DNA of 64,000 nucleotides from Patescibacteria group bacterium (GCA_049322655.1 JBMORP010000002.1:172915-236914), one strand, 5' to 3'. Shown: positions 430 to 55,968, counted from the stretch's first letter. Numbers and translations are program-made. The notes: a model not told the origin generated them from the letters alone.

Positions 430-502
430 TGGACCACAGGAGAATCGAACTCCTGACCTTTGCAATGCGAATGCAACGCTCTACCAACTGAGCTAGTGGC
501 CC
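430..502 (-). tRNA. tRNA-Ala (anticodon CGC), no encoded CCA
   Basis: The reverse complement folds as a cloverleaf: GGGCCAC acceptor stem with a G3:U70 pair, GCTCAGTTGGTAGAGC D-arm, anticodon loop TTCGCAT and a GGTTCGATTCC T-arm. Confidence 0.85.
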
Positions 503-7637: not shown

Positions 7638-9419
7638 TTATTTGACAGTCACACTTTTAGCTAGATTTCTTGGTTTATCAGGATCATTGCCTAATTTAAT
7701 CGCCAAGTAGTAAGCCAAAAGCTGAAAAGGAATAACCTTAGTAATTGGGTCAAGTTCTCCAAGCTCAGGTGCAACCAAATGCACATCAAAAAAATCATTG
7801 TTTTCTTGAGCAATACCGACTACCTTAGCACCTCTAGCCTTAACTTCCGCCAAAGCACTAATAACTTCATGTTGTTCCTGAATATCTCCTCCCACAATAC
7901 CAATTACAAAAGTGCCTTTTTCAATCAAAGCAATTACCCCATGTTTTAGTTCTCCAGCTGAAAAACCTTCAAAGTGCTTATAACTGATCTCCTTGATTTT
8001 TAAAGCACCCTCCAAAGCAGTATAAAAATGCTGATTTTTACCCAAAACAAAGACGTGTTCTTGATTGGCTAATTGTTGGGCTAGTTTTTTAAATACTGTT
8101 TGGTGATGGTGATCTGAAAAGTATGCTTGAAGTTGGTCAGCCAGTTGACGAATATTTTGTTGAGCTTGATCATATCTTCCCATGACTGTTTGAGCTAATA
8201 AATAACCCCAAACCAACTGAGACGTATAAGCTTTAGTGGAAGCAACACAAATTTCTGGACCTGATCTGGAAAAAAATTGGTAATCAGAAAATCTAGTCAA
8301 AGTTGAACCAACCATATTAACAATACTAGCCACCTCAACTTGTTTTTCTTTCAATTGTTCAATAACTGCTAACGTATCGGCTGTTTCTCCACTTTGACTA
8401 ACCGCAATCACCAAATCTTTTTGGGTAATTAGGGGCAAATAATTTGCTGATTCATAAGCTTTAAGTTCAAAAGCATTAATCCCAACCATCCTTAAAAACC
8501 TAGCAATTTGCCCAGCAGCGAAAGCCGCTGTACCAGCTCCCAGTGTATAAACTTTGTCAGCCATCTTGATTTTATTAACCAACTTAGAAAAATCTTGCTC
8601 ACTATAACTAGCTGCTTCGATTACCGTGTGTTGTTGCTCAAAAATCTCCTTGACCATAAAGTGCGGAAAGCCATCTTTATCTATCTTTTCTGCTTGTTGG
8701 GTTAAGAGATGTTTCTTAAAATTAAGTTTTTTGCCTGTTTTGACAGCAAACAATTGCACATTCCCATGACTAATTTTCACTAATTGGCCATCTAATACAT
8801 AAATTAGTTCAGGCACATTGCCCAATAAAGGCATCGTGTCAGAAGCCAAATAAACTTCTTGTCGGCCGACTCCCACTACCAACGGAGAACCTTGCCGAAC
8901 AGCAATAATTGTTTCGGTTAATTTATCCAAAACTACAAAAGTATTTCTGCCTGTTAACTGCAAAAAAGTTTGGCTAACAGCAACTCTCAAATCTTTAGTC
9001 TGCTGTAGCTGATAGTGCAGTAAATGTACAATTACCTCGGTATCGGTTTGGGTGGTAAATTTATAGCCAAGTTTTTTAAGTTGGTCTTTGAGTGGCAAAA
9101 AATTTTCAACAATACCATTTTGTACTACTGCAAATCTGCCATCAATTGATAAATGAGGGTGAGCATTATTCTTAGTCACGCCACCATGAGTTGCCCACCG
9201 AGTGTGACCAATCCCAAGCAAAGAAGGTTTTTTGTTTTTAGCAGCCAAACCAGTAATTTGGCCAGTTTTTTTATCAATAAAAATACCATGATCAGTAGTT
9301 AGAGCTACGCCCCAAGAGTCATAACCACGATACTCCATAGTCTTAAGCCCCGTAATAATTTTATTTGCTACTTGGGTTTGGTTGTTGAGATTACTACTGT
9401 AACCAATAATGCCACACAT
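7638..9419 (-). CDS. glmS: glutamine--fructose-6-phosphate aminotransferase
   Basis: MCGIIGY N-terminus and SIS domains. I trimmed the start to the Met preceding the catalytic Cys, because the longer ORF would bury Cys1. Confidence 0.95.
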   Translation of the reverse strand: MCGIIGYSSNLNNQTQVANKIITGLKTMEYRGYDSWGVALTTDHGIFIDKKTGQITGLAAKNKKPSLLGIGHTRWATHGGVTKNNAHPHLSIDGRFAVVQNGIVENFLPLKDQLKKLGYKFTTQTDTEVIVHLLHYQLQQTKDLRVAVSQTFLQLTGRNTFVVLDKLTETIIAVRQGSPLVVGVGRQEVYLASDTMPLLGNVPELIYVLDGQLVKISHGNVQLFAVKTGKKLNFKKHLLTQQAEKIDKDGFPHFMVKEIFEQQHTVIEAASYSEQDFSKLVNKIKMADKVYTLGAGTAAFAAGQIARFLRMVGINAFELKAYESANYLPLITQKDLVIAVSQSGETADTLAVIEQLKEKQVEVASIVNMVGSTLTRFSDYQFFSRSGPEICVASTKAYTSQLVWGYLLAQTVMGRYDQAQQNIRQLADQLQAYFSDHHHQTVFKKLAQQLANQEHVFVLGKNQHFYTALEGALKIKEISYKHFEGFSAGELKHGVIALIEKGTFVIGIVGGDIQEQHEVISALAEVKARGAKVVGIAQENNDFFDVHLVAPELGELDPITKVIPFQLLAYYLAIKLGNDPDKPRNLAKSVTVK

Positions 9420-9800
9420 GGTGTTCCCTTCTTTTTTGCAGACAAAACCTGCAAAAAACATTTGTTAAAAATGCTAGAACAAAGTAACTCCACCAAAAGC
9501 AGTGAATTCACTTAATACCTAGCTATAAAGGGAAAAATGAAGGGGTGTGAAGTTGTCTTTGGCCCAAAATTTACAGATTGGTTTTAAACTTCTTCTTGAG
9601 GTATACCCATACCTGAGGGTTTCCGCAGATGCTCTCTTTTGTGATTAGTAAAAGAAGCCCGATTGTTACCTTTTAAGGCAACCCCTCTTCCTCGTTTTCC
9701 GGGTTTCTATACAAAACCTGGACCACACGCTCTTTTTTGCAAGCAACATTTGCTCACCTTTGAAAGAAGCATAACAACCTCCAAGCAAAATGTCAAAAAC
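9420..9800 (-). promoter_or_regulatory. unusually long glmS 5' leader with GC-enriched structured core; possible glmS-ribozyme-like element
   Basis: The leader is about 380 nt in a compact genome. The segment cccggaaaACGAGGAaGAGGGG...CCCUC resembles the ACGAGGA / GGAGG...CCUCC core of the glmS ribozyme. A 10-bp hairpin lies just 5' of the RBS (9431..9457). Confidence 0.3.
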
Positions 9801-10982: not shown

Positions 10983-11074
10983 GTTTTCCTTTCGCTGTGA
11001 GCCCTCTGTTTACCTAACTAGAGAGGGAACCAAGTTTTTACTAGGGGTGTATTATAGCAGATCATTTAGAATAA

Positions 11075-11731
11075 TTATCGTTGAAACCAAAAATTAATTC
11101 CTTTTTTGATTTGCTCAACATTATCAACATCAACATGCCAAGCTCCATCCATCCTTCTTACGGTTTCAGTATCCTCACCACCCAAATCATCAGTGAGTGG
11201 AAAAAGCTTATGTTCATGGACAGCATATTCAACTAAGTTCTTAAAATAGGAATCAGCATCTAACCCAGGAGAAATAATTATGAAAACTCTTGTTGCCTTT
11301 GAAACAAAATATTTCATAGCTGCTTCTTTAAATTTCAGCTCAACATCTCTTAAAAAAAGATCTTCAACATTAATAAATTCAACATTATTATCAAGCAAAA
11401 TTTTCTCCATTTTTTTACCTGACAATCTAGCTTCATCAGCGTATAAAACTAAACCAAACTGACCAGAAACTCTAACTTTTTCAGCTGTGGCCATAATTCC
11501 GACTTCATTTGGAGCAGCCCCACATTGAGCACAAGTGCCGTCTGGAAAAATGGTTTCATAATTTATATTACCAGCACCACAACTTGGACAAACAAATAAA
11601 TTTCTTTTAATCTCCATTTCTTTATGGTCTGGTGGTGCTCCACAATGAGAACAGGTATTATTTGCATAAAGGGTAACAGCTCTTCCATCTGATCCGCAGT
11701 TTGGACAAAACTTTTTTGAAAATTCAACCAT
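11075..11731 (-). CDS. tandem zinc-ribbon protein with C-terminal TIR-like domain
   Basis: Two CPxCG...C(S/A)xCG ribbons. The C-terminal about 130 aa follow the TIR strand/helix pattern: GLVLYADE, KILLDNNVEFI, RVFIIISPGLDADSYFKNLVEYAVHE with a candidate catalytic Glu, then KLFPLTDD. Confidence 0.55.
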   Translation of the reverse strand: MVEFSKKFCPNCGSDGRAVTLYANNTCSHCGAPPDHKEMEIKRNLFVCPSCGAGNINYETIFPDGTCAQCGAAPNEVGIMATAEKVRVSGQFGLVLYADEARLSGKKMEKILLDNNVEFINVEDLFLRDVELKFKEAAMKYFVSKATRVFIIISPGLDADSYFKNLVEYAVHEHKLFPLTDDLGGEDTETVRRMDGAWHVDVDNVEQIKKGINFWFQR

Positions 11732-11746
11732 AAAAATCCTTTATTT

Positions 11747-12841
11747 TTACTTACCAATCATGAACTCAACCACGTCACCCTCGTGCATCACATAATCACG
11801 ACCTTCTTGACGAATTTTGCCAGCATCTTTCAATCCTGACCAACCTTTTAAGTTCACAAAATCATCATAATTTGCCACTCTGGCAGTAATAAAATGTTTT
11901 TCAAAATCAGTATGAATTACACCAGCAGCTTGTGGAGCAGTCATTCCTTGTTTAATGGTCCAGGCTCTAACTTCTTTTTCTCCAGCAGTTAAGAAACTTT
12001 GCAAATTAAGTGTTTGATAGGCAACTTTTGCCAATCTTTCTAGACCGCTTTCAGTTAAACCAAGTTCTGATAAATAAAGTTCTTGATCTTCAGTGGTTAA
12101 AACAGCAATTTCACTTTCAATCTTTGCACTTACCATCACTATTTGTTCTGCTTTTACCTCTAAAATCTTAGCCCACTCACTTGCTTTATTAAGTTCATCT
12201 TTCAAAACATCTTCATCAACATTAAGTACAAAAATTTCTGGTTTAGAGGTTAATAAATTAAGCTCTCTAGCATATTTAACTGCATTTTTTTCATCACCAT
12301 AAGTTGTCATATCTGCACTTAACATTCGACCTGCTGCCAAAGTTTTTTGGAACTTCTGGACATACTCCCAACGAATAAATAATTCTTTGTCTACTCCTCC
12401 CTTTGGTGGTTTTTGTTTTTCCAAAGTCGCCAAGTCAGCTAGTTGTAACTCTGTTCTAATTGTCTCCAAGTCTTCCTCTGGAGAAACTGCTCCTTCACGA
12501 ATTACATTCTTATCACTAAAAGCTCTTAACACATGACAAATAGCATCGGTTTCTCTGATGTGAGAAAGAAATTGATTGCCTAAACCCTCACCCTTTGAAG
12601 CACCCCTAACTAAGCCAGCGATATCAGTAAACTCCACCACGGCTGGTTTAATCACCGTAGTTTTAACTACTTCTGCCAATACAATCAATCTTTTGTCTGG
12701 TACTTCAGCAATCCCATTATTGGGTTCAATCGTCGCAAAAGGATAGTTAGCTGCTAAAGCTACCTGTTTTTTCAATAAAGCATTAAATAAAGTAGACTTA
12801 CCGACATTAGGTAAACCAACAATTCCAATTGATAAAGACAT
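11747..12841 (-). CDS. ychF: ribosome-binding ATPase YchF
   Basis: GxPNVGKST P-loop with Obg-like, TGS-domain architecture. Confidence 0.9.
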   Translation of the reverse strand: MSLSIGIVGLPNVGKSTLFNALLKKQVALAANYPFATIEPNNGIAEVPDKRLIVLAEVVKTTVIKPAVVEFTDIAGLVRGASKGEGLGNQFLSHIRETDAICHVLRAFSDKNVIREGAVSPEEDLETIRTELQLADLATLEKQKPPKGGVDKELFIRWEYVQKFQKTLAAGRMLSADMTTYGDEKNAVKYARELNLLTSKPEIFVLNVDEDVLKDELNKASEWAKILEVKAEQIVMVSAKIESEIAVLTTEDQELYLSELGLTESGLERLAKVAYQTLNLQSFLTAGEKEVRAWTIKQGMTAPQAAGVIHTDFEKHFITARVANYDDFVNLKGWSGLKDAGKIRQEGRDYVMHEGDVVEFMIGK

Positions 12842-12871
12842 ATGTGTATTGTACTTGATGTTTAGAAAAAA

Positions 12872-13963
12872 TTATTGAGAAAATAATTGCAAATACTTAG
12901 CAAAATCTTGAACAAACAAGTGAGGCTCTTTAGTGAACCACTGTCTCAACTCTTCAAGCTTTAACCACTTGATCTTAGCGATTTCATTTTTATTAAAATT
13001 AATTTCACTATTCTCTACTGAACTTATAAACCACTGACAAAAAAATTGATTGTCTCCTGATAAAAACAACTTTGTCTTTTTCTCTAAAGCTAAGTTTTTT
13101 AAATCTAATTCATTTTCAGCAGCCTTAACTATCGCTTGTTCATAAGTTTGGTCACTCTCCACAAAACTGGCAGCCGCTGGTCCCCATTTTCCTGGATCAT
13201 TCTTTTTATGAAAAGCTCTTTGAGCTAACAATACTTCACCTGTTTGATTCTTTAACCACAAACTTGAGACCCTAAAAATATCTTTTTCTGCTACTGCCTC
13301 TTTTAGTTTTTCGGCAACTACTTCATCCTGATGGTTAACTATGGCATATTTCTTTTTGGTATCAACATCTAGAATAATATCTAGTTTTTCAGCAACAGCT
13401 TGAAAAATTTTCTCATGACCAACCACATTGGGATGTAAACCATCAGCAAAGTCTGTATCAGTCAAAATAGCTTGTAAATCAATAAAGGTAAAATTTTCTT
13501 TTTCACAAACTTTTTTTATTACCTGTGAGTACTGATTAAGATTCGCTTTATCGTAACTCTTTCCAGTCGTACTCTGAGGCAAAGGGTTAGTTATTTGGTC
13601 ATCACCTTTGGCCAAACCAACAAAAATAATTCTAGAAGTATGTTTTTTTGCCAACCCACTCAATAAGTTTAGGTTTTCTCTGAAAATATTTATTGGAGTA
13701 ATAGGTTGTTCTTTGACTCTGATGAAGGCAGCATCATTAGTCCCTATAGCAAAAATAATCACTGCTGGGTTTCTAGCCTGAGCTTCTTGATCAAAACGTT
13801 TTAATAAATCCGTTGAAGTATTTTTATCTATTCCCAAATCATAAACAGAGAAAAATTCATCACTGACTTTTTCTAAATGGTTACGTAATAAATTAGCCCA
13901 ACCAACTCTAAAAGGTAGTTTAGCTCCCCAAGTAATACTGTCACCAAAGACACAAATGTTCAT
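12872..13963 (-). CDS. SGNH/GDSL hydrolase fused to a Nudix-like domain with degenerate Nudix box
   Basis: FGDSIT, GTNDA and DGLHPN blocks. The C-terminal PGKWGPAAASFVESDQ...AAENELDL matches the Nudix fold but lacks the GG/E residues of the box. Confidence 0.7.
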   Translation of the reverse strand: MNICVFGDSITWGAKLPFRVGWANLLRNHLEKVSDEFFSVYDLGIDKNTSTDLLKRFDQEAQARNPAVIIFAIGTNDAAFIRVKEQPITPINIFRENLNLLSGLAKKHTSRIIFVGLAKGDDQITNPLPQSTTGKSYDKANLNQYSQVIKKVCEKENFTFIDLQAILTDTDFADGLHPNVVGHEKIFQAVAEKLDIILDVDTKKKYAIVNHQDEVVAEKLKEAVAEKDIFRVSSLWLKNQTGEVLLAQRAFHKKNDPGKWGPAAASFVESDQTYEQAIVKAAENELDLKNLALEKKTKLFLSGDNQFFCQWFISSVENSEINFNKNEIAKIKWLKLEELRQWFTKEPHLFVQDFAKYLQLFSQ

Positions 13964-14523
13964 TATTTACTCTTTTTTAAAGTTTTTTTGAATTCTAATT
14001 TTAATAAATCTTGACTAAAATGAGACAAACCAAATCTAATAGCAAAATCATCCCCGCTAAATTTTTGTTTAGCAAAAGCAACCATTTTGGCATAGGCCCT
14101 TAAAAAATTGTCTACACCAGTAAGTGGTGAAATTTGATTCAAACCAACAGATAAAATTGCTTCATCTTCAGATTGGACAACTTGCCAGTTTTGTTCGGGT
14201 TGAACTTCTTTATTGTCATCAAACAACAAAAATAAACCATAAACTTTGGCTCCAGAAAAACCAAACCTTATTCTCGAGGGATGTTTTTGAATTCCAGAAA
14301 GAAATGTCTCCACCTCAAGACCTAATTTTCTGGCAACAGCATATAACTTACTGGTAATTTCTACTGAATCTTCTTTTCTAACCGGACTTCCCCATGACAC
14401 TACCAAACCAACACCATGCTCGATAACTACCTCATAGTCAAAACCTGTTAATTCTCGTTCTAACGCTTGTAAAAAATTATGCTTAATGGCTTCTTGTTGT
14501 TCTATTGGTAAAACTTCATGCAT
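13963..14523 (-). CDS. hypothetical protein
   Basis: Intact ORF translationally coupled (TAATG overlap) within the operon. I recognise no motif. Confidence 0.55.
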   Translation of the reverse strand: MHEVLPIEQQEAIKHNFLQALERELTGFDYEVVIEHGVGLVVSWGSPVRKEDSVEITSKLYAVARKLGLEVETFLSGIQKHPSRIRFGFSGAKVYGLFLLFDDNKEVQPEQNWQVVQSEDEAILSVGLNQISPLTGVDNFLRAYAKMVAFAKQKFSGDDFAIRFGLSHFSQDLLKLEFKKTLKKSK

Positions 14524-14539
14524 AGTTTAATTATAACTT

Positions 14540-15100
14540 TTAAATAACCTTTGCTGCTTTTTTAATTAATCTCATCAAAGCATAATCTAGTTTATCACCT
14601 AATTCATATCCTTCTGAAAAACTAAGAAACTTTAAGTCTTGTGATTCATGTTCTGCTGGCTTAGGTAGCTTTTCTGCTTGGGTAAAAATTAAATAACGAA
14701 AATCCAGATGTAAGTGGGCTGGAATTCCTTTTTTTTCTGGAATAATTTGTACTTCTATATCTATCGGTTTATCTGTATAAAACTCCAAATCAGTTAAACC
14801 ACTTTCTTCCTTTGCTTCTTTCATCGCTACTTTAGCTAAATCAGTTTCCCCGTCTGCATGCCCACCAAACTGCAACCACTTATTGAGTTTTTTATGGTTA
14901 TGTAAAAGTATTTTTTGGGTGGTTGGATTAACCACTAATGCCGAACCAGTCAAATGAGCCTCTAAACAATCTCTAATAAAAATATTTTCATGCTTGGTTA
15001 CCAACTCTATAATTTTTTTAACGTCAGCTAATTCTCTAGAATCACTAGTTTCAAACCAATTCAATAATTCAATTATTTTATTTCTTGGTTGGCTCAACAT
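14540..15100 (-). CDS. Nudix hydrolase
   Basis: Nudix box GGHADGETDLAKVAMKEAKEESGL. Confidence 0.8.
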   Translation of the reverse strand: MLSQPRNKIIELLNWFETSDSRELADVKKIIELVTKHENIFIRDCLEAHLTGSALVVNPTTQKILLHNHKKLNKWLQFGGHADGETDLAKVAMKEAKEESGLTDLEFYTDKPIDIEVQIIPEKKGIPAHLHLDFRYLIFTQAEKLPKPAEHESQDLKFLSFSEGYELGDKLDYALMRLIKKAAKVI

Positions 15101-15713
15101 AAGTTCTTAAAAATAATTTTTCTACTTTATCTTTAAGATAATCTAAATCAAAGATATTAGGAATAAACAAAACATTGACTGGATATTTATGAACTGCCTG
15201 TAAAAAATCATCATGAACAAAGAACCGCTCAAAAGCTTCGTTTGGGCAAAAGAAAGACTCAAACACAGTAGCATCTTTACTGAGAGGTGGTCGCTGTTGA
15301 TTCCTCTGTCTTCTTGCTTCAACCGGTGAATAAATATAAACAAATAACGATGTTTTTTTTAGGTTTTCAGATAATTGAGAAAACAAGTGATGGTAAGAAA
15401 AATCAACTACGCCTTGTTCATCAAAACCTCTGGAAATTTCTATTACTTTGTTTTTATCTGAAAGTTGAGCTTTTTCAACCAGTTGAGCTACAGAATAATA
15501 AACTGGCTCTGAATCTTTCAAGACAAAACTATCCGGAGTCGGTTTATGGTGATGTTTTTGTTCAACATCACGTTTAATAAACTCAACCATTTCCAATGAA
15601 TCATTCAAGTAATTTACCTTTTTGCCCAAAGATTGATTGACCAATCTTAAAACAGTTGTTTTTCCTGAAGCGGCTAACCCGCAAAACCAAATATTTTGAT
15701 AGGCATCAAACAT
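15078..15713 (-). CDS. P-loop kinase (AAA_33/KTI12-PSTK-like)
   Basis: Walker A GLAASGKTT near the N-terminus. Arg-rich lid RRQRNQQR. Confidence 0.6.
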   Translation of the reverse strand: MFDAYQNIWFCGLAASGKTTVLRLVNQSLGKKVNYLNDSLEMVEFIKRDVEQKHHHKPTPDSFVLKDSEPVYYSVAQLVEKAQLSDKNKVIEISRGFDEQGVVDFSYHHLFSQLSENLKKTSLFVYIYSPVEARRQRNQQRPPLSKDATVFESFFCPNEAFERFFVHDDFLQAVHKYPVNVLFIPNIFDLDYLKDKVEKLFLRTYVEPTKK

Positions 15714-15718
15714 TTTTT

Positions 15719-16450
15719 CTATTGGCCAAGATACTGCCCTCCTGTTGCATTGATAATCGAACCTGTCAAAAATCCAGATTGCTTATCATCAGTCAGAAAA
15801 GCCACGATTTGGGCTATTTCCGCAGGGGCAGCGATTCTCCCAATAGGAGTATTTGAAGCAATTTTATTTCTAGTTTCCTCATCCCAGTCAGCAGTCATGG
15901 GTGTATCCATGGCTCCTGGGTAAATGGCGTTACAACGAAGATTGGGCCCAACTTGTAAAGCAACTGCTTTGGTTAAACCCAATAAACCAGCCTTTGATGC
16001 AGCATAGCCGGGTTTTTTGGTTCCAATTACGCCAACCATTGAAGAAATATTAACAATTGAGCCTTTAATATTGAACTCTGCTGAGTTTTGAGCAAACAGC
16101 TGACTCAAAACAAAAGGAGCTGTCAAGTTAATATTCATCATTAAATTCCAGTGATCCAAAGTACCATCAATTAGTTTTCCACCAACACTTAAACCAGCAT
16201 TATTAACCAATACAGTCCAGTTTTTATTGGGTAAAAATTTGGCCAAAGAATTTTTTATTGTTTCTGGTTTAGAAAAATCAACTCCACCAATTGCTAATTC
16301 TAAATTATCTTTCAATTCAGCTAGATTCTGTTTAAGAGTTTCTGTTTCTAATAAATCAACCGCAACAATTTTGAAACCTTTTTCAACCAAAGCTTTACAA
16401 ACCTCTTTACCCAAACCGCCTGATGCTCCAGTAACTAAAGCTAATTTCAT
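15719..16450 (-). CDS. short-chain dehydrogenase/reductase (FabG-like)
   Basis: TGASGGLG, NNAG and YAASKAG motifs. Confidence 0.85.
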   Translation of the reverse strand: MKLALVTGASGGLGKEVCKALVEKGFKIVAVDLLETETLKQNLAELKDNLELAIGGVDFSKPETIKNSLAKFLPNKNWTVLVNNAGLSVGGKLIDGTLDHWNLMMNINLTAPFVLSQLFAQNSAEFNIKGSIVNISSMVGVIGTKKPGYAASKAGLLGLTKAVALQVGPNLRCNAIYPGAMDTPMTADWDEETRNKIASNTPIGRIAAPAEIAQIVAFLTDDKQSGFLTGSIINATGGQYLGQ

Positions 16451-17451
16451 TATTCAAATCTCCTTTCATAAGCCATATCAATCACTCTCATGATTCTCAT
16501 GTTGTGACTAATATTCTGTGACCAAATTGATTTATCATTGGCTAAAAACTGCTCAAAAGCCTTGATAACAGCATCAGTACCGTCACTAGCAAAACTGTAG
16601 TGGTTTAATTCTTTCCCTTGAACATCATAAACCGTTAAATCTGACTTAGTTACTACAAACCTACCCTTAGTTCCCCTAACTTCAATTGATTCTTCTTTGG
16701 GACCGCTTAGCACTGCCAATTGAAAAACTCCTTGAACGCCAGTAGGATGCCAGTTGTGTAAGCTAGCAGCATCTTCAACCTCATAAGTATAATTTGGTTT
16801 GGCAATATTTGACCAATGAAGATTGGCCTCACTCACTTCACCAAAATATCTCATAATTACATCAAGTAAATGGTAACCCATATCAATTAATGCACCACCA
16901 CCAGCAGCTTGAATAGCACTTCTCCAACCCTCATAAAGATTGCCATGAGGAATAAAATGACGAGCATTATACATATAAGGTGTACCAATCACTCCATCAT
17001 GTAATAATTGCAAACCCATGGCATATGATGGATAGAACTGTCTTTTGGTGACAGTGTAAATTTGAACATTATCTTTCATTGCCAAAGTGCTAAGTGCTTT
17101 AGCTTCTTCTAGATTAAGAGCAAATGGCTTCTCTTTAAAAACAGTCACATTATTGGCTACTGCTAATTCAATAATATCCTTGTACAAGAAGTGAGGAACC
17201 GACAACACTGCTCCATCAAGCTTAAGCTCTTTTTTACTAACCTTAGCAAATAAATCTTTATAGTCACTATAAACTTTAACCTGTTCTGAATTGGGCAATA
17301 ATTCTTGAGCCAAAGTAATAAATTCTTGACTAATGTCACAAATAGCTGCAATCTCACATTGATCAGCCAATCTTAATAAAGCGGGAATAAGCTCACTCCT
17401 AGACTGACCTCCAAGGCCAATGATTGCGAGTCTCTTTTTTTTGTTTTCCAT
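16450..17451 (-). CDS. Gfo/Idh/MocA family oxidoreductase
   Basis: N-terminal Rossmann IIGLGG with a C-terminal Gfo/Idh/MocA-like domain. Confidence 0.85.
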   Translation of the reverse strand: MENKKKRLAIIGLGGQSRSELIPALLRLADQCEIAAICDISQEFITLAQELLPNSEQVKVYSDYKDLFAKVSKKELKLDGAVLSVPHFLYKDIIELAVANNVTVFKEKPFALNLEEAKALSTLAMKDNVQIYTVTKRQFYPSYAMGLQLLHDGVIGTPYMYNARHFIPHGNLYEGWRSAIQAAGGGALIDMGYHLLDVIMRYFGEVSEANLHWSNIAKPNYTYEVEDAASLHNWHPTGVQGVFQLAVLSGPKEESIEVRGTKGRFVVTKSDLTVYDVQGKELNHYSFASDGTDAVIKAFEQFLANDKSIWSQNISHNMRIMRVIDMAYERRFE

Positions 17452-53694: not shown

Positions 53695-53766
53695 CAGGGC
53701 CACGAGGACTTGAACCCCGGCGAAAGGTTTTGGAGACCTTCATGCTACCAACTACATCATGGCCCT
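53695..53766 (-). tRNA. tRNA-Trp (anticodon CCA)
   Basis: Cloverleaf with AGGGCCA acceptor stem, anticodon loop CTCCAAA and TTCAAGT T-loop. Confidence 0.85.
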
Positions 53767-53829
53767 AACTAAGTAGAGCCTTATTATAACTGAAAATCAC
53801 TAAGATTAAGGAGAAATTTACTCTCACTC

Positions 53830-55254
53830 TTGCCTCAAAACCAAAAAACATCTAGGCTAATATATATGCCCATGCTGAATAGTTCTCTCAGAAAAACCAA
53901 GAAATTAGATAGAAAATATTTAGCCAAAACTAAATTTCCTTTCATTACTGTTTCTGGAACTTATCGTGAAGACCTTAAAGGCCTTCACCAACTTAAAGAA
54001 AATGATCTTACTAGAGATATTGTCCTCTCCAGAGCCCATTACTCAATGACCATTGGTGTAGCAGTAGAGGCCTGGAAGAACAAACTAGACCCTCATCAGG
54101 CTTGGATTGTTGATCCTACAAATTATGTGACCAACCAAAACTGGAAAACTATTATTATTACTGAAACAATCGGTAAAATCTTGGCTCGCTTTCCTTTGCT
54201 AAAAAAACTTAAAGACTTTGTCGATAAATTCGGTCGCCAAAAACTACCTATTTTGGAAAGCATTAGACAACCATTAATCACTTTGACTAAAGATATTAAT
54301 AAGCCGATTCTGTCTTTCCACATTGCTGCTGGAAATATTCTTTTAGATAAAGGAAAAACTGTTTTTCAAATGATTACCGACCCTCACGTCAGAGAAGACT
54401 ACCTGGCTAATTGTGATAAAGAACATGCTTTCTATGGAGTTTTTGACGAAAAAACTAAACAAGAATTCCTGGAAAAAGCCGAAAAACTAGGTAAAACAGC
54501 CAATCCTAAAAGAGTGATTGTCACTGGTCCTCCAATTGATCCCAGAGTAATTGAGTCCAGAAACCACAAATCTCCCTGGAATAACAAAAAGCCACTTAGA
54601 ATTTGTCTAACTACTGGTGGTTTAGGTACTAATAAGCCAGAAATCAAACAAATCTTGACACAACTTTTACCAGAATTGAAAAAAGATCAACCTAGATTTG
54701 AATTGGTAGTTTATGCAGGCACTCAAGCAGATATCAAAAACATGGTTATTGATCTAGCCAGGAGAGAAGAAGTTAATTATGCAGAAATCAATCCTGTCGA
54801 TCCGGCTCAGTTTGAGATAGGTAAGAAAGTCGCTCTAAAACCAGAATTATATAAACATTTTACTCAACCACTGAGAATCCTTTATCATCCGCAAATAATT
54901 GATGCTAACGAACTACTCATTGCGTACGGTTTCCCTTGGGCAGATCTATTTATTAGTAAACCTTCTGGAGATATGGCTTATGATGCTGTGGCTAGTGGAG
55001 CTGCGTTGCTAACTTTGGCTGAGTGGGGTGAATGGGAACACAATATTAAAGTTAAGTTTCAAGGTCATGAAGTAGCACAAGAAGCAAATGTTGAACAGAT
55101 TGTTAAACAACTGGAAAAAATTACTCACGCCACTCCAACAAAATCAGCCTGGATTCAACACGCTCAACATTTGGCTAGAACGATTGAAAAACATGACCAA
55201 TACTTTATGGTTGGTGCCAAAAATATCTTAAAAACAGCCGCAAAACTAAAATAA
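53830..55254 (+). CDS. GT28-like glycosyltransferase (MGDG synthase/UgtP-like), start uncertain (TTG 53830 or ATG 53866)
   Basis: C-terminal LFISKPSGDMAYDAVASGAALLTL matches the UgtP/MGD ITKPGG...EALA motif. Confidence 0.65.
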   Translation: MPQNQKTSRLIYMPMLNSSLRKTKKLDRKYLAKTKFPFITVSGTYREDLKGLHQLKENDLTRDIVLSRAHYSMTIGVAVEAWKNKLDPHQAWIVDPTNYVTNQNWKTIIITETIGKILARFPLLKKLKDFVDKFGRQKLPILESIRQPLITLTKDINKPILSFHIAAGNILLDKGKTVFQMITDPHVREDYLANCDKEHAFYGVFDEKTKQEFLEKAEKLGKTANPKRVIVTGPPIDPRVIESRNHKSPWNNKKPLRICLTTGGLGTNKPEIKQILTQLLPELKKDQPRFELVVYAGTQADIKNMVIDLARREEVNYAEINPVDPAQFEIGKKVALKPELYKHFTQPLRILYHPQIIDANELLIAYGFPWADLFISKPSGDMAYDAVASGAALLTLAEWGEWEHNIKVKFQGHEVAQEANVEQIVKQLEKITHATPTKSAWIQHAQHLARTIEKHDQYFMVGAKNILKTAAKLK

Positions 55255-55305
55255 AACTAAAAACCCCGCCATTTGGCGGGGTTTAGATTAACAATTTAAC
55301 AACTC

Positions 55306-55509
55306 TTATTTGAGTTTTTTCATCATTTTGTGTTCAGTATGTTTTCTACATACATTACAGTATTTATTGATAGGAAATGTTCCTTGACCTTCTGATTGCT
55401 TCTTTAAAATGTCATTGTTTTTATTGTATTCGGTCACATAACCAAAGTGTTTACACACGGTACATTGCAAACCTGCAATCTGTCTTGGTCCTTTTTTCTT
55501 TTTTGCCAT
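55306..55509 (-). CDS. rpmG: ribosomal protein L33
   Basis: MAKKKKG N-terminus with CxxC...CxxC zinc ribbon. Confidence 0.85.
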   Translation of the reverse strand: MAKKKKGPRQIAGLQCTVCKHFGYVTEYNKNNDILKKQSEGQGTFPINKYCNVCRKHTEHKMMKKLK

Positions 55510-55559
55510 ATATCTCCTCTGAATTTGCTAGGCAGGTATTATATCACAACCTAATTCTG

Positions 55560-55632
55560 AGCCAACTGTGGGACTCGAACCCACGACCTACGGTTTACAA
55601 AACCGTTGCTCTACCAACTGAGCTAAGTTGGC
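55560..55632 (-). tRNA. tRNA-Thr (anticodon UGU)
   Basis: GCCAACT acceptor stem, anticodon loop TTTGTAA and GGTTCGAGTCC T-arm. Confidence 0.85.
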
Positions 55633-55659
55633 GGTAGAGTCGGCTCTAATGAGAGCCAA

Positions 55660-55684
55660 TCATGTGCCAAGGGAAGGATTCACT
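55660..55684 (-). repeat. direct repeat of the last about 20 nt of tRNA-Tyr (atgtgccaagggaaggattc); att-like scar
   Basis: The 20-mer is identical at 55663..55682 and 55796..55815. Confidence 0.5.
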
Positions 55685-55765
55685 GACTCAGGCTCGTTCT
55701 ATACTTTAAAAATATAGGGCTCGCTTGAGGCAGTATAAACTTCTCATCCCACCTTTATATTATTT

Positions 55766-55793
55766 TAAAAATCACCAATGGTGATTTTTAAAA
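55766..55793 (-). terminator. hairpin plus T-run immediately 3' of tRNA-Tyr
   Basis: aaaaatcacc-aat-ggtgattttt 10-bp stem followed by TTTTTAATAAT on the minus strand. Confidence 0.4.
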
Positions 55794-55798
55794 CAATG

Positions 55799-55881
55799 TG
55801 CCAAGGGAAGGATTCGAACCTACGAAGGCGAAAGCCAGCAGTTTTACAGACTGCCCTGTTTGACCACTTCAGTACCTTGGC
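55799..55881 (-). tRNA. tRNA-Tyr (anticodon GUA), class II with long variable arm
   Basis: GCCAAGG acceptor stem, anticodon loop CTGTAAA and GGCTTTCGCC variable arm. One mismatch in the T-stem. Confidence 0.75.
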
Positions 55882-55895
55882 ATAACTAATTCTTG

Positions 55896-55968
55896 AGCCT
55901 TTGTCGGGGTTCGAACCCGAGACCTCAGTCTTACCAAGACTGCGCTCTGCCACCTGAGCTACAAAGGC
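55896..55968 (-). tRNA. tRNA-Thr (anticodon GGU)
   Basis: GCCTTTG acceptor stem, anticodon loop TTGGTAA and GGGTTCGAACCCC T-arm. Confidence 0.85.

What the first reader, a model, noticed from the sequence alone, without database searches (positions are those of the whole stretch)
11075..17451. Zinc-ribbon/TIR-like protein terminating a co-directional Nudix-kinase-hydrolase-oxidoreductase operon
Nine tightly packed or overlapping minus-strand genes run from 17451 down to 11075. They are a Gfo/Idh/MocA oxidoreductase, an SDR, a P-loop kinase, a canonical Nudix hydrolase, a hypothetical protein, an SGNH hydrolase fused to a Nudix-like domain with a degenerate box, ychF, and finally a protein with two zinc ribbons plus a C-terminal domain. 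That domain's strand/helix pattern and SxxF..L.E.. motif look like a TIR domain (an NAD+ glycohydrolase / signal-generating fold). A TIR domain next to Nudix enzymes (ADP-ribose or cyclic-ADPR pyrophosphatase chemistry) and a small-molecule kinase suggests a module that makes and processes an NAD-derived nucleotide. This would be a signalling or defence-like system, or a salvage route, not matching any described operon I know.
Basis: partly seen in the sequence, partly recalled or inferred. Interest (0 to 1): 0.7.

Follow-up and report, generated by a model that had tools for sequence, protein, structure and literature searches.

The report
Orphan zinc-ribbon protein with TIR fold
The last gene of the run encodes a rare Patescibacteria protein whose C-terminal half is predicted to have a TIR fold, but it lacks a conserved catalytic glutamate and is not genetically tied to the neighbouring Nudix and kinase genes, so the proposed NAD-signalling operon is not supported.

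Summary
The genes exist as described, but there are eight, not nine. Their domain calls hold: GFO/IDH/MocA, SDR, P-loop AAA_33-like, Nudix, an orphan, SGNH plus degenerate Nudix, YchF, and a double zinc ribbon with an unannotated C-terminal domain.

The functional reading fails on two points.
- **No conserved glutamate.** The proposed catalytic Glu (E168) reads E,E,K,K,E in the five known family members. The whole αC helix is the least conserved part of the protein, with 0 of 12 residues invariant.
- **No conserved neighbourhood.** The three more distant homologues sit between dnaK and glycosyltransferase/dnaJ genes, with no Nudix, kinase, oxidoreductase or ychF nearby.

The upstream genes do contain a real conserved module: GFO–SDR–P-loop, with or without Nudix and an HD hydrolase. 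It recurs in other Patescibacteria in different flanking contexts, always without the zinc-ribbon protein.

Verdict: a stand-alone, lineage-restricted zinc-ribbon/TIR-fold protein, probably not a canonical NADase, sitting by chance next to an unrelated sugar-type metabolic module.

The parts
11075..11731 (-). Gene for the 218-aa double zinc-ribbon / TIR-fold protein (NCBI MFZ5437609.1, named 'zinc ribbon domain-containing protein', Patescibacteria MAG).
   Evidence: ORF. An AAAGGA ribosome-binding site lies 5-6 nt before the ATG, and the gene starts 15 nt after the ychF stop. Only five family members were found in 5.8 billion protein clusters, and only two clusters in an exhaustive HMMER search.
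11507..11731 (-). Residues 1-75: two zinc ribbons, with four CxxC pairs (C9/C12, C27/C30, C48/C51, C67/C70).
   Evidence: All eight Cys are invariant in five homologues. Mean pairwise identity is 62-67%. Pfam Zn_ribbon_3 and DZR hits are sub-threshold.
11462..11506 (-). Residues 76-90: linker helix with the invariant motif E-x-G-I-x3-AEKVR. It is the most conserved segment of the protein.
   Evidence: Mean pairwise identity is 73%, with 9 of 15 residues invariant. It is a helix in the model.
11078..11461 (-). Residues 91-218: TIR-fold domain (βA 93-96, αA 99-114, βB 119-121, αB 132-145, βC 148-153, αC 161-172, βD 176-180, αE 205-216).
11747..12841 (-). ychF (redox-regulated ATPase YchF), a housekeeping gene that is not part of either module.
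   Evidence: TIGR00092 scores 401 bits against a cut-off of 279. It is adjacent to the metabolic module only in the window, L001 and L009/10, and absent next to it in L011-L016.
12872..13963 (-). SGNH/GDSL hydrolase fused to an IDI/YfcD-like Nudix-fold domain with a degenerate Nudix box. This insertion is seen only in the window.
   Evidence: Pfam Lipase_GDSL_2 E 2e-22 and NUDIX E 8e-12; NCBIfam IDI and YfcD hits are below their cut-offs. It is absent from L001 and every other locus.
13963..14523 (-). Orphan 186-aa protein. It occupies the slot where relatives carry an HD-domain phosphohydrolase.
   Evidence: No Pfam, NCBIfam, PHROG or PDB hit. It is 38% identical to the L001 copy. It is unrelated to the HD proteins of L009/L011/L013 (hhalign probability 0.1%).
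14540..15100 (-). Nudix hydrolase, an accessory member of the conserved metabolic module.
   Evidence: Pfam NUDIX scores 29.7 bits against a cut-off of 21.1. PDB 3fcm matches at E 1.5e-18. It is present after the P-loop gene in L001, L009/10 and L011/12, and absent in L013-16.
15078..15713 (-). P-loop NTPase of the kinase-like AAA_33 class, a core member of the conserved module.
   Evidence: Pfam AAA_33 scores 26.0 bits. The family has 24 homologous clusters. The gene always follows GFO-SDR.
15719..16450 (-). SDR oxidoreductase, a core member of the module.
   Evidence: adh_short E 4e-40. It is 63-81% identical in all loci anchored on the P-loop gene.
16450..17451 (-). GFO/IDH/MocA oxidoreductase, the first gene and a core member of the module.
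   Evidence: Pfam hits. The nearest solved relatives are DgpA C-glycoside 3-oxidase and scyllo-inositol dehydrogenase. It is 58-79% identical in all loci anchored on the P-loop gene.
10983..11074 (-). Conserved rpsF promoter and leader: TATAAT at 11051-11056, and a hairpin CCCTCT 11022-11027 / AGAGGG 11002-11007. It marks the downstream boundary of the variable slot that holds the zinc-ribbon/TIR gene.
   Evidence: The alignment with L001 and L009 is conserved from just after the upstream stop codon, even though L009 has an MFS fragment in place of the zinc-ribbon gene. No Rfam match.

Best explanation
The region holds two unrelated things that happen to lie on the same strand in a compact Patescibacteria (Pacebacteria-like) genome.

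**(A) Genes 17451-14540.** These belong to a conserved small-molecule module: GFO/IDH/MocA dehydrogenase, SDR reductase and a P-loop kinase-like NTPase, usually followed by a Nudix hydrolase and an HD phosphohydrolase. In this genome the HD gene is replaced by an orphan. By inference the module oxidises, reduces and phosphorylates a sugar-like or glycoside-like substrate, and the phosphohydrolases trim the products.

**(B) Gene 11075-11731.** This is a stand-alone, lineage-restricted protein in a variable slot between ychF and the rpsF promoter. It consists of two zinc ribbons, a highly conserved linker helix (AEKVR) and a TIR-fold domain.
- The TIR fold is shown by modelling.
- The domain is most likely not a canonical Glu-dependent NADase, because the helix that should carry the catalytic Glu is the least constrained part of the protein.
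- My inferred mechanism is that the zinc ribbons and linker helix are the constrained working surface and bind a macromolecular partner (nucleic acid or protein).
- The TIR-fold domain would then act as a self-association scaffold or as a nucleotide-binding sensor module, as proposed for inactive members of the TIR/DrHyd/SLOG class (PMC9503650).

The protein does not work together with the Nudix and kinase genes.
For: **Fold.**
- The AF2 model of residues 76-218 has pLDDT 80.4 and pTM 0.78, and four of the five models scored pLDDT 76-80 (the fifth 42).
- The 33 best Foldseek PDB hits are TIR or SEFIR chains, with TM up to 0.68.
- hhalign against PDB-verified TIR sequences gives E 0.002 and aligns the family's SPG motif with SARM1 VLVLSPG.

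**Not a canonical NADase.**
- The E168 column reads E,E,K,K,E and the next column reads Y,Y,E,H,H.
- αC (residues 161-172) has 23% mean pairwise identity and 0 of 12 invariant residues. The zinc ribbons have 62-67% and the linker helix 73%.
- The Glu is required in AbTir, TcpO, BdTIR, ThsB and ThsB2 (PMC10022894).

**Stand-alone.**
- The P0003, P0004 and P0005 loci lie between hrcA-grpE-dnaK and a 1306-aa orphan, GT2, YfhO and dnaJ. None of the window's other seven genes is within 10 kb.
- In L009/10 the same ychF|rpsF slot holds an MFS fragment.

**Module.** GFO-SDR-P-loop occurs in every locus anchored on the P-loop gene, including loci between uvrB and uvrA (L011/12, L015/16) and another context (L013/14). 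Nudix and HD are variably present.

**Packing.** Tight co-directional packing is the genomic norm in this window.
Against: - The family has only five sequences, so conservation statistics are weak. Three of the five, including the window protein, do carry Glu at position 168, so an active subset is not excluded.
- I could not superpose the model on a TIR structure residue by residue. The structural equivalent of the catalytic Glu is therefore known only to within about 3 residues; hhalign puts SARM1 E642 on N165.
- The model rests on a five-sequence alignment.
- No partner, ligand or phenotype is known, so the scaffold/sensor mechanism is inference.
- The gene starts 15 nt after ychF and has its own ribosome-binding site, so it is probably co-transcribed with upstream genes. 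Co-expression with the Nudix genes in this genome therefore cannot be excluded.
- The substrate of the GFO-SDR-P-loop module is unknown.
Confidence: 0.55

Rival explanations
1. The TIR-like protein cleaves NAD+ into a signal nucleotide, and the neighbouring Nudix enzymes and P-loop kinase process it. Together they would form a new signalling, defence or salvage operon.
For: - The fold is TIR.
- E168 is present in the window protein.
- The genes are co-directional and tightly packed.
- TIR, Nudix and SLOG domains are known partners in NAD+/ADPr networks (PMC9503650).
Against: - The neighbourhood is absent in three of the five family members. The one relative that shares it is syntenic over all the housekeeping flanks and lacks the SGNH-Nudix gene.
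- The Nudix/kinase module recurs without any TIR gene.
- The Glu is not conserved.
- There are no PADLOC hits.
- The housekeeping gene ychF separates the TIR-fold gene from the Nudix genes.
Confidence: 0.05
2. The protein is a stand-alone active TIR NADase, acting as a toxin or as a minimal single-gene defence sensor-effector. The zinc ribbons sense a trigger and the TIR domain depletes NAD+. It would be active at least in the E168-bearing copies (window, P0002, P0005).
For: - The fold is TIR, with best matches including the NADases SARM1, AbTir, TIR-SAVED and SPARTA.
- Glu is present at position 168 in three of five members.
- The gene sits in variable slots in different genomic contexts. It also evolves faster than its neighbours: 60% identity against 73-93% between the window and L001. 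This is typical of accessory or defence genes.
Against: - K replaces E168 in P0003 and P0004. P0004 differs from its close relative P0005 at this position.
- αC is the least conserved segment.
- No TIR, ThsB or other defence HMM hit.
- No neighbouring defence genes.
- No viral or mobile-element relatives.
Confidence: 0.13
3. The domain is a nucleoside 2-deoxyribosyltransferase / DrHyd-like N-glycosidase that acts on nucleosides or nucleotides, serving salvage in an auxotrophic Patescibacteria cell.
For: - NDTs are prominent among the viral-library hits.
- The β1 motif LYA(G/D)(D/E)A loosely recalls the NDT YxAGP motif (read directly from the sequence).
Against: - There is no invariant acidic residue in the helix after strand 3, where the NDT and TIR nucleophile Glu sits.
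- No Pfam Nuc_deoxyrib_tr hit even at E<=10.
Confidence: 0.07
4. The protein is a housekeeping accessory factor of translation or proteostasis. It would be a zinc-ribbon protein that binds the ribosome, RNA or chaperones, with the TIR fold serving only as a structural domain.
For: - It lies between ychF and rpsF-ssb-rpsR here. In the other clade it lies among hrcA-grpE-dnaK, dnaJ, nusA and infB.
- The zinc ribbons and linker helix are the most conserved parts.
- There are weak zinc-ribbon similarities to eL43, TFS and Elf1.
Against: - Those similarities are far below threshold and generic for zinc ribbons.
- Housekeeping neighbours are simply what most of a small Patescibacteria genome consists of.
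- A family of five sequences is too narrowly distributed for a core factor.
Confidence: 0.15

Closest known systems
TIR domains (MyD88, MAL, SARM1, AbTir, TIR-SAVED, SPARTA TIR-APAZ; Pfam clan STIR)
   Different: There is no detectable HMM-level sequence similarity. No catalytic Glu is conserved and αC is hypervariable. I found no description of an N-terminal double zinc ribbon plus conserved linker helix combined with a TIR fold. No partner effector gene is present.
Thoeris ThsB (DUF1863 / TIR-like)
   Different: No ThsA (SIR2-SLOG or Macro) gene lies next to it in any of the five contexts. There is no PADLOC ThsB hit. ThsB needs its catalytic Glu (E85; PMC10022894), and that residue is not conserved here.
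SEFIR domains (IL-17R, Act1, bacterial SEFIR)
   Different: No Pfam SEFIR hit. The domain architecture and the taxon differ.
Nucleoside 2-deoxyribosyltransferase / DrHyd superfamily
   Different: They rank below TIRs. No conserved nucleophile Glu and no HMM hit.
NadR / NadM-type NAD salvage (P-loop kinase or Nudix fused to an adenylyltransferase)
   Same: A P-loop kinase-like gene and a Nudix gene lie adjacent and overlap by 23 nt.
   Different: No adenylyltransferase is present. The kinase-like protein is always preceded by two sugar-type dehydrogenases, and the GFO protein is nearest to DgpA and scyllo-inositol dehydrogenase. Nudix is dispensable in some genomes.

Membership tests
TIR domain superfamily | Flavodoxin-like α/β fold with TIR-specific geometry, so that the best structural neighbours are TIR domains. 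| tested here: met
TIR domain superfamily | Significant match to a TIR-family sequence profile (Pfam TIR, TIR_2, TIR-like/DUF1863, SEFIR; PADLOC ThsB). | tested here: not met
   No Pfam hit for the C-terminal domains of three members even at E<=10. Nothing in PADLOC. The only signal is a weak pairwise hhalign result, E 0.002, probability 13%.
Catalytic (NADase) TIR domains | Invariant catalytic glutamate in helix αC. | tested here: not met
   Column 168 reads E,E,K,K,E and column 169 reads Y,Y,E,H,H. No invariant residue in 161-172. The Glu requirement comes from PMC10022894.
Catalytic (NADase) TIR domains | NAD+ cleavage or cADPR-isomer production. | not testable with these tools
   This needs a biochemical assay.
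Thoeris | ThsB-type TIR gene adjacent to a ThsA effector (SIR2 or Macro with SLOG). | tested here: not met
   No such neighbour in the window or in L001, L004, L007 or L008. No PADLOC hit.
Proposed TIR + Nudix + kinase NAD-nucleotide module | Co-occurrence of the TIR-like gene with the Nudix, kinase and oxidoreductase genes across genomes. | tested here: not met
   The tblastn table shows co-occurrence only in the window and the syntenic L001/2 loci. It is absent in L004-L008. The module occurs without the TIR-like gene in L009-L016.
Nucleoside 2-deoxyribosyltransferase-like | Conserved nucleophile Glu, and a profile match. | tested here: not met
   No Pfam hit. No invariant acidic residue after βC. 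Fold similarity is only secondary to TIR.
YchF (gene 11747-12841) | Equivalog HMM TIGR00092 above its cut-off. | tested here: met
   401.1 bits against 279.2.
Nudix hydrolase (gene 14540-15100) | Pfam NUDIX above the gathering score, and a Nudix box. | tested here: met
   29.7 bits against 21.1. The box reads GGHADGE-x8-KEAKEESGL, with R replaced by K and the first E shifted by one residue (read from the sequence).
Conserved GFO-SDR-P-loop module | The same three genes in the same order in genomes with different flanking genes. | tested here: met
   L009/10 share the window's synteny. L011/12 and L015/16 lie between uvrB and uvrA. L013/14 lie in another context.

The most novel reading that the evidence does not exclude
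The double zinc-ribbon/TIR-fold protein is a new minimal single-protein TIR immune or toxin module of Patescibacteria. It is invisible to all current TIR HMMs. The Glu-bearing copies, including this one, would be trigger-activated NADases. In this lineage the gene may have been captured next to Nudix hydrolases that detoxify or process its product.
Probability: 0.1. Interest if true: 0.65.

Novelty: new variant of a known kind. Interest (0 to 1): 0.3.

Why it matters
If the model is right, this is a TIR-fold domain that no sequence profile recognises. It is fused to a double zinc ribbon and confined to a handful of ultra-small Patescibacteria genomes. It adds a data point on how far TIR-like domains have diverged, and on TIR folds that have probably lost or never had NADase chemistry.

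The practical lesson is negative: in these compact genomes, co-directional tight packing does not indicate an operon-level functional link.

The conserved GFO-SDR-P-loop(-Nudix-HD) module is an uncharacterised metabolic cassette in organisms with very little metabolism. It may deserve more follow-up than the TIR idea.

Tried and rejected
- **Full-length AF2.** A model from a two-sequence alignment was useless (pLDDT 42). Modelling only the C-terminal domain with five sequences worked.
- **AFDB.** The afdb50 fold library was unavailable.
- **Sequence searches with the C-terminal profile.** The PDB search gave only a chance CurF hit at E 0.27. Pfam at E<=10 found nothing. PADLOC and PHROGs gave nothing meaningful.
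- **More family members.** I searched for more without success:
  - An exhaustive HMMER search of 1.84 billion representatives found two clusters.
  - The genome-contig scan returned only the known L004 contig.
  - Two metagenome scans and two viral scans found none.
- **Window record.** The exact-sequence lookup of the window protein's own contig was not on record.
- **hyp186 and the HD gene.** I tested whether the 186-aa orphan is a degenerate HD phosphohydrolase. It is not (hhalign probability 0.1%).
- **Neighbours in the other clade.** The 138/142-aa zinc-ribbon orphan and the 1306-aa orphan have no Pfam or PADLOC family and no homologue in this window.
- **rpsF leader.** An Rfam search found nothing.
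- **Literature.** Searches found no description of a zinc-ribbon-TIR family in Patescibacteria.
- **Position of the catalytic Glu.** I could not map it residue by residue because model coordinates and structural alignments are not returned. I relied instead on the absence of any invariant residue in the whole αC helix.

Full report
**Observation.** They are separated by -23 to +30 nt. Profile searches confirm the domain assignments:
- GFO/IDH/MocA oxidoreductase (16450-17451).
- SDR (15719-16450).
- A P-loop NTPase of the AAA_33 kinase-like class (15078-15713). It scores 26.0 bits, just under the cut-off, and has the Walker A motif GLAASGKTT.
- A Nudix hydrolase above the Pfam threshold with a near-canonical box (14540-15100).
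- A 186-aa protein with no family (13963-14523).
- An SGNH/GDSL hydrolase fused to an IDI/YfcD-like Nudix fold with a degenerate box (12872-13963).
- YchF, by equivalog HMM (11747-12841).
- A 218-aa protein with four CxxC pairs and an unannotated C-terminal half (11075-11731).

NCBI names the last one 'zinc ribbon domain-containing protein' from a Patescibacteria MAG. The packing is not unusual for this genome. In the window 52 of 68 neighbouring gene pairs are co-directional, with a median gap of 25 nt. The same-strand run continues through rpsF-ssb-rpsR, the glmS ribozyme and glmS down to 5082.

**The C-terminal domain.** The family is tiny.
- A word-indexed search of 5.8 billion protein clusters found the protein itself and one 60% relative.
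- An exhaustive HMMER search of 1.84 billion representatives with a C-terminal profile found only two clusters.
- A profile search brought the total to five proteins at 45-60% identity.
- Scans of GTDB genomes, JGI metagenomes and IMG/VR added none.

No Pfam, NCBIfam, PADLOC or PHROG model hits the C-terminal domain, even at E<=10. A PDB sequence search is also empty.

A full-length AlphaFold run on two sequences failed (pLDDT 42). Residues 76-218 with the five-sequence alignment gave a confident model: pLDDT 80.4, pTM 0.78, with four of the five models scoring pLDDT 76-80 and the fifth 42. Its order of elements is helix, βA, αA, βB, short helix, αB, βC, αC, βD, αD, βE, αE.
- **Foldseek against the PDB.** It returns TIR or SEFIR chains for ranks 1-33, with E from 5.6e-4 and TM up to 0.68.
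- **Viral library.** It gives weaker TIR and NDT hits.
- **Weak sequence-level check.** hhalign gave E 0.002 (probability 13%) over a co-linear stretch of 116 columns. It aligns the family's FIIISPG with SARM1 VLVLSPG.

**Catalytic competence.** Prokaryotic and plant TIR NADases require a conserved glutamate in αC: AbTir E208, TcpO E279, BdTIR E127, ThsB E85, ThsB2 E124 (PMC10022894).
- In this family the proposed Glu (E168 in LVEYAV) reads E,E,K,K,E. The next column reads Y,Y,E,H,H. P0004 aligns without any indel in this segment and has K-H at these two positions.
- Irrespective of register, αC (161-172) is the least conserved segment of the whole protein, with 23% mean pairwise identity and 0 of 12 invariant residues. 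hhalign places SARM1 E642 on N165, whose column reads N,K,S,K,K.
- By contrast, the zinc ribbons have 62-67% identity and the linker helix (E76-x-G-I-x3-AEKVR) has 73%.
- The invariant polar residues of the domain are E109 (αA), N121 and D124 (βB/BB-loop), Y141 (αB) and S154 (end of βC).

This pattern does not fit a canonical Glu-dependent NADase family. An active subset is not excluded, because three of the five members carry E168. Inactive members of the TIR/DrHyd/SLOG class have been proposed to act as nucleotide sensors (PMC9503650).

**Gene neighbourhood.** The 60% homologue (L001/L002) lies in a region that is syntenic over more than 20 kb, including TGT, EamA, cupin, rpsF-ssb-rpsR, glmS and prfA. 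The shared order therefore reflects close relatedness, and even there the SGNH-Nudix gene is missing.

The three more distant homologues (L004-L008) lie between hrcA-grpE-dnaK and a 1306-aa orphan, GT2, YfhO, dnaJ, nusA and infB. In L004-L007 they are divergently paired with a 138/142-aa zinc-ribbon orphan. None of the window's other seven genes is within 10 kb. Those neighbours have no Pfam or PADLOC family.

The reverse test was anchored on the P-loop protein, which has 24 homologous clusters.
- GFO-SDR-P-loop is found in every locus examined.
- One locus is a Pacebacteria genome with the window's synteny, in which the ychF|rpsF slot holds an MFS fragment instead of the zinc-ribbon gene (L009/10).
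- Two other genomes have the module between uvrB and uvrA (L011/12, L015/16), and another has it in a different context (L013/14).
- Nudix and an HD phosphohydrolase follow in some of these loci and are absent in others.
- The window's 186-aa orphan sits in the HD slot but is unrelated to HD proteins.

The intergenic DNA upstream of rpsF is conserved from just after the upstream stop codon, whichever gene precedes it. It contains a TATAAT and a hairpin. The zinc-ribbon gene thus occupies a variable slot. It is also less conserved than its neighbours: 60% identity against 73-93% between the window and L001.

**Interpretation.** Two independent entities are juxtaposed.

The upstream genes belong to a conserved but uncharacterised Patescibacteria module. 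Its dehydrogenase is nearest to C-glycoside 3-oxidase DgpA and scyllo-inositol dehydrogenase. I infer a sugar or glycoside oxidation, reduction and phosphorylation route with accessory phosphohydrolases, not NAD-derived signalling.

The 218-aa protein is a stand-alone, lineage-restricted protein made of a double zinc ribbon, a linker helix and a TIR fold. My best mechanistic guess is inferred, not shown. The strongly constrained zinc ribbons and linker helix would bind a macromolecular partner. The TIR fold would serve as an assembly scaffold or nucleotide-sensing domain rather than a NADase.

Rivals:
- An active stand-alone NADase toxin or defence protein in the Glu-bearing copies (about 0.13).
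- A housekeeping zinc-ribbon factor (about 0.15).
- An NDT-like glycosidase (about 0.07).

**Novelty and score.** TIR folds and their NAD+/ADPr partners are well known. A TIR-fold domain that is undetectable by sequence, fused to a double zinc ribbon and confined to a few Patescibacteria, with a hypervariable αC, is a new variant of a known kind. The evidence is purely computational, the family is very small, and the proposed novel operon is not supported. Interest is modest (0.3).

Noticed in passing
window 9539-9742 (-): A glmS ribozyme (RF00234, 42.2 bits against a gathering score of 37) lies directly upstream of glmS (7638-9461, -).
   Followed up: no
window 10983-11074 (-); L001 10652-10757; L009 13553-13650: The rpsF 5' region is conserved. 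It has a TATAAT (11051-11056) and a hairpin CCCTCT/AGAGGG (11002-11027) whose loop varies between genomes. It is conserved regardless of which gene lies upstream. It may be an S6:S18 autoregulatory leader. No Rfam match at E<=1.
   Followed up: partly
window 14540-17451 (-); L009-L016: A conserved Patescibacteria cassette, GFO/IDH/MocA - SDR - P-loop (AAA_33-like), is variably followed by Nudix and an HD phosphohydrolase. It occurs in at least three different flanking contexts, for example between uvrB and uvrA. Its substrate is unknown. The GFO protein is nearest to DgpA and scyllo-inositol dehydrogenase.
   Followed up: partly
window 13963-14523 (-): A fast-evolving orphan of 186 aa has no family or PDB hit. 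It is 38% identical to the L001 copy, whereas neighbouring genes are 73-82% identical. It replaces the HD-domain gene found at this position in related genomes and is not homologous to it.
   Followed up: partly
window 12872-13963 (-): An SGNH/GDSL hydrolase is fused to an IDI/YfcD-like Nudix fold with a degenerate Nudix box. It is present only in this genome among all loci compared.
   Followed up: no
L004 9460-9888 (-), L007 9498-9914 (-); L004 10744-14664, L008 1625-5551: In the other clade the zinc-ribbon/TIR gene is divergently paired with a conserved 138/142-aa zinc-ribbon orphan (motifs NLPARNG..LFIK and WFQK.KN.FPRG). In three loci it is followed by an orphan of about 1306 aa. Neither has a Pfam or PADLOC family, and neither has a homologue in this window.
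   Followed up: partly
L004 / L017 (contig CAYWDM010000002.1, GCA_964457085.1): The record is titled 'uncultured Pseudomonadales bacterium', yet it carries a member of this family, whose only source-named member (the window protein) is from a Patescibacteria MAG. Its local gene order also resembles that of L007. The taxonomic label looks doubtful.
   Followed up: no
window 53695-55968 (-) and 430-502 (-): Five tRNA genes were found, four of them clustered at 53.7-56.0 kb.
   Followed up: no
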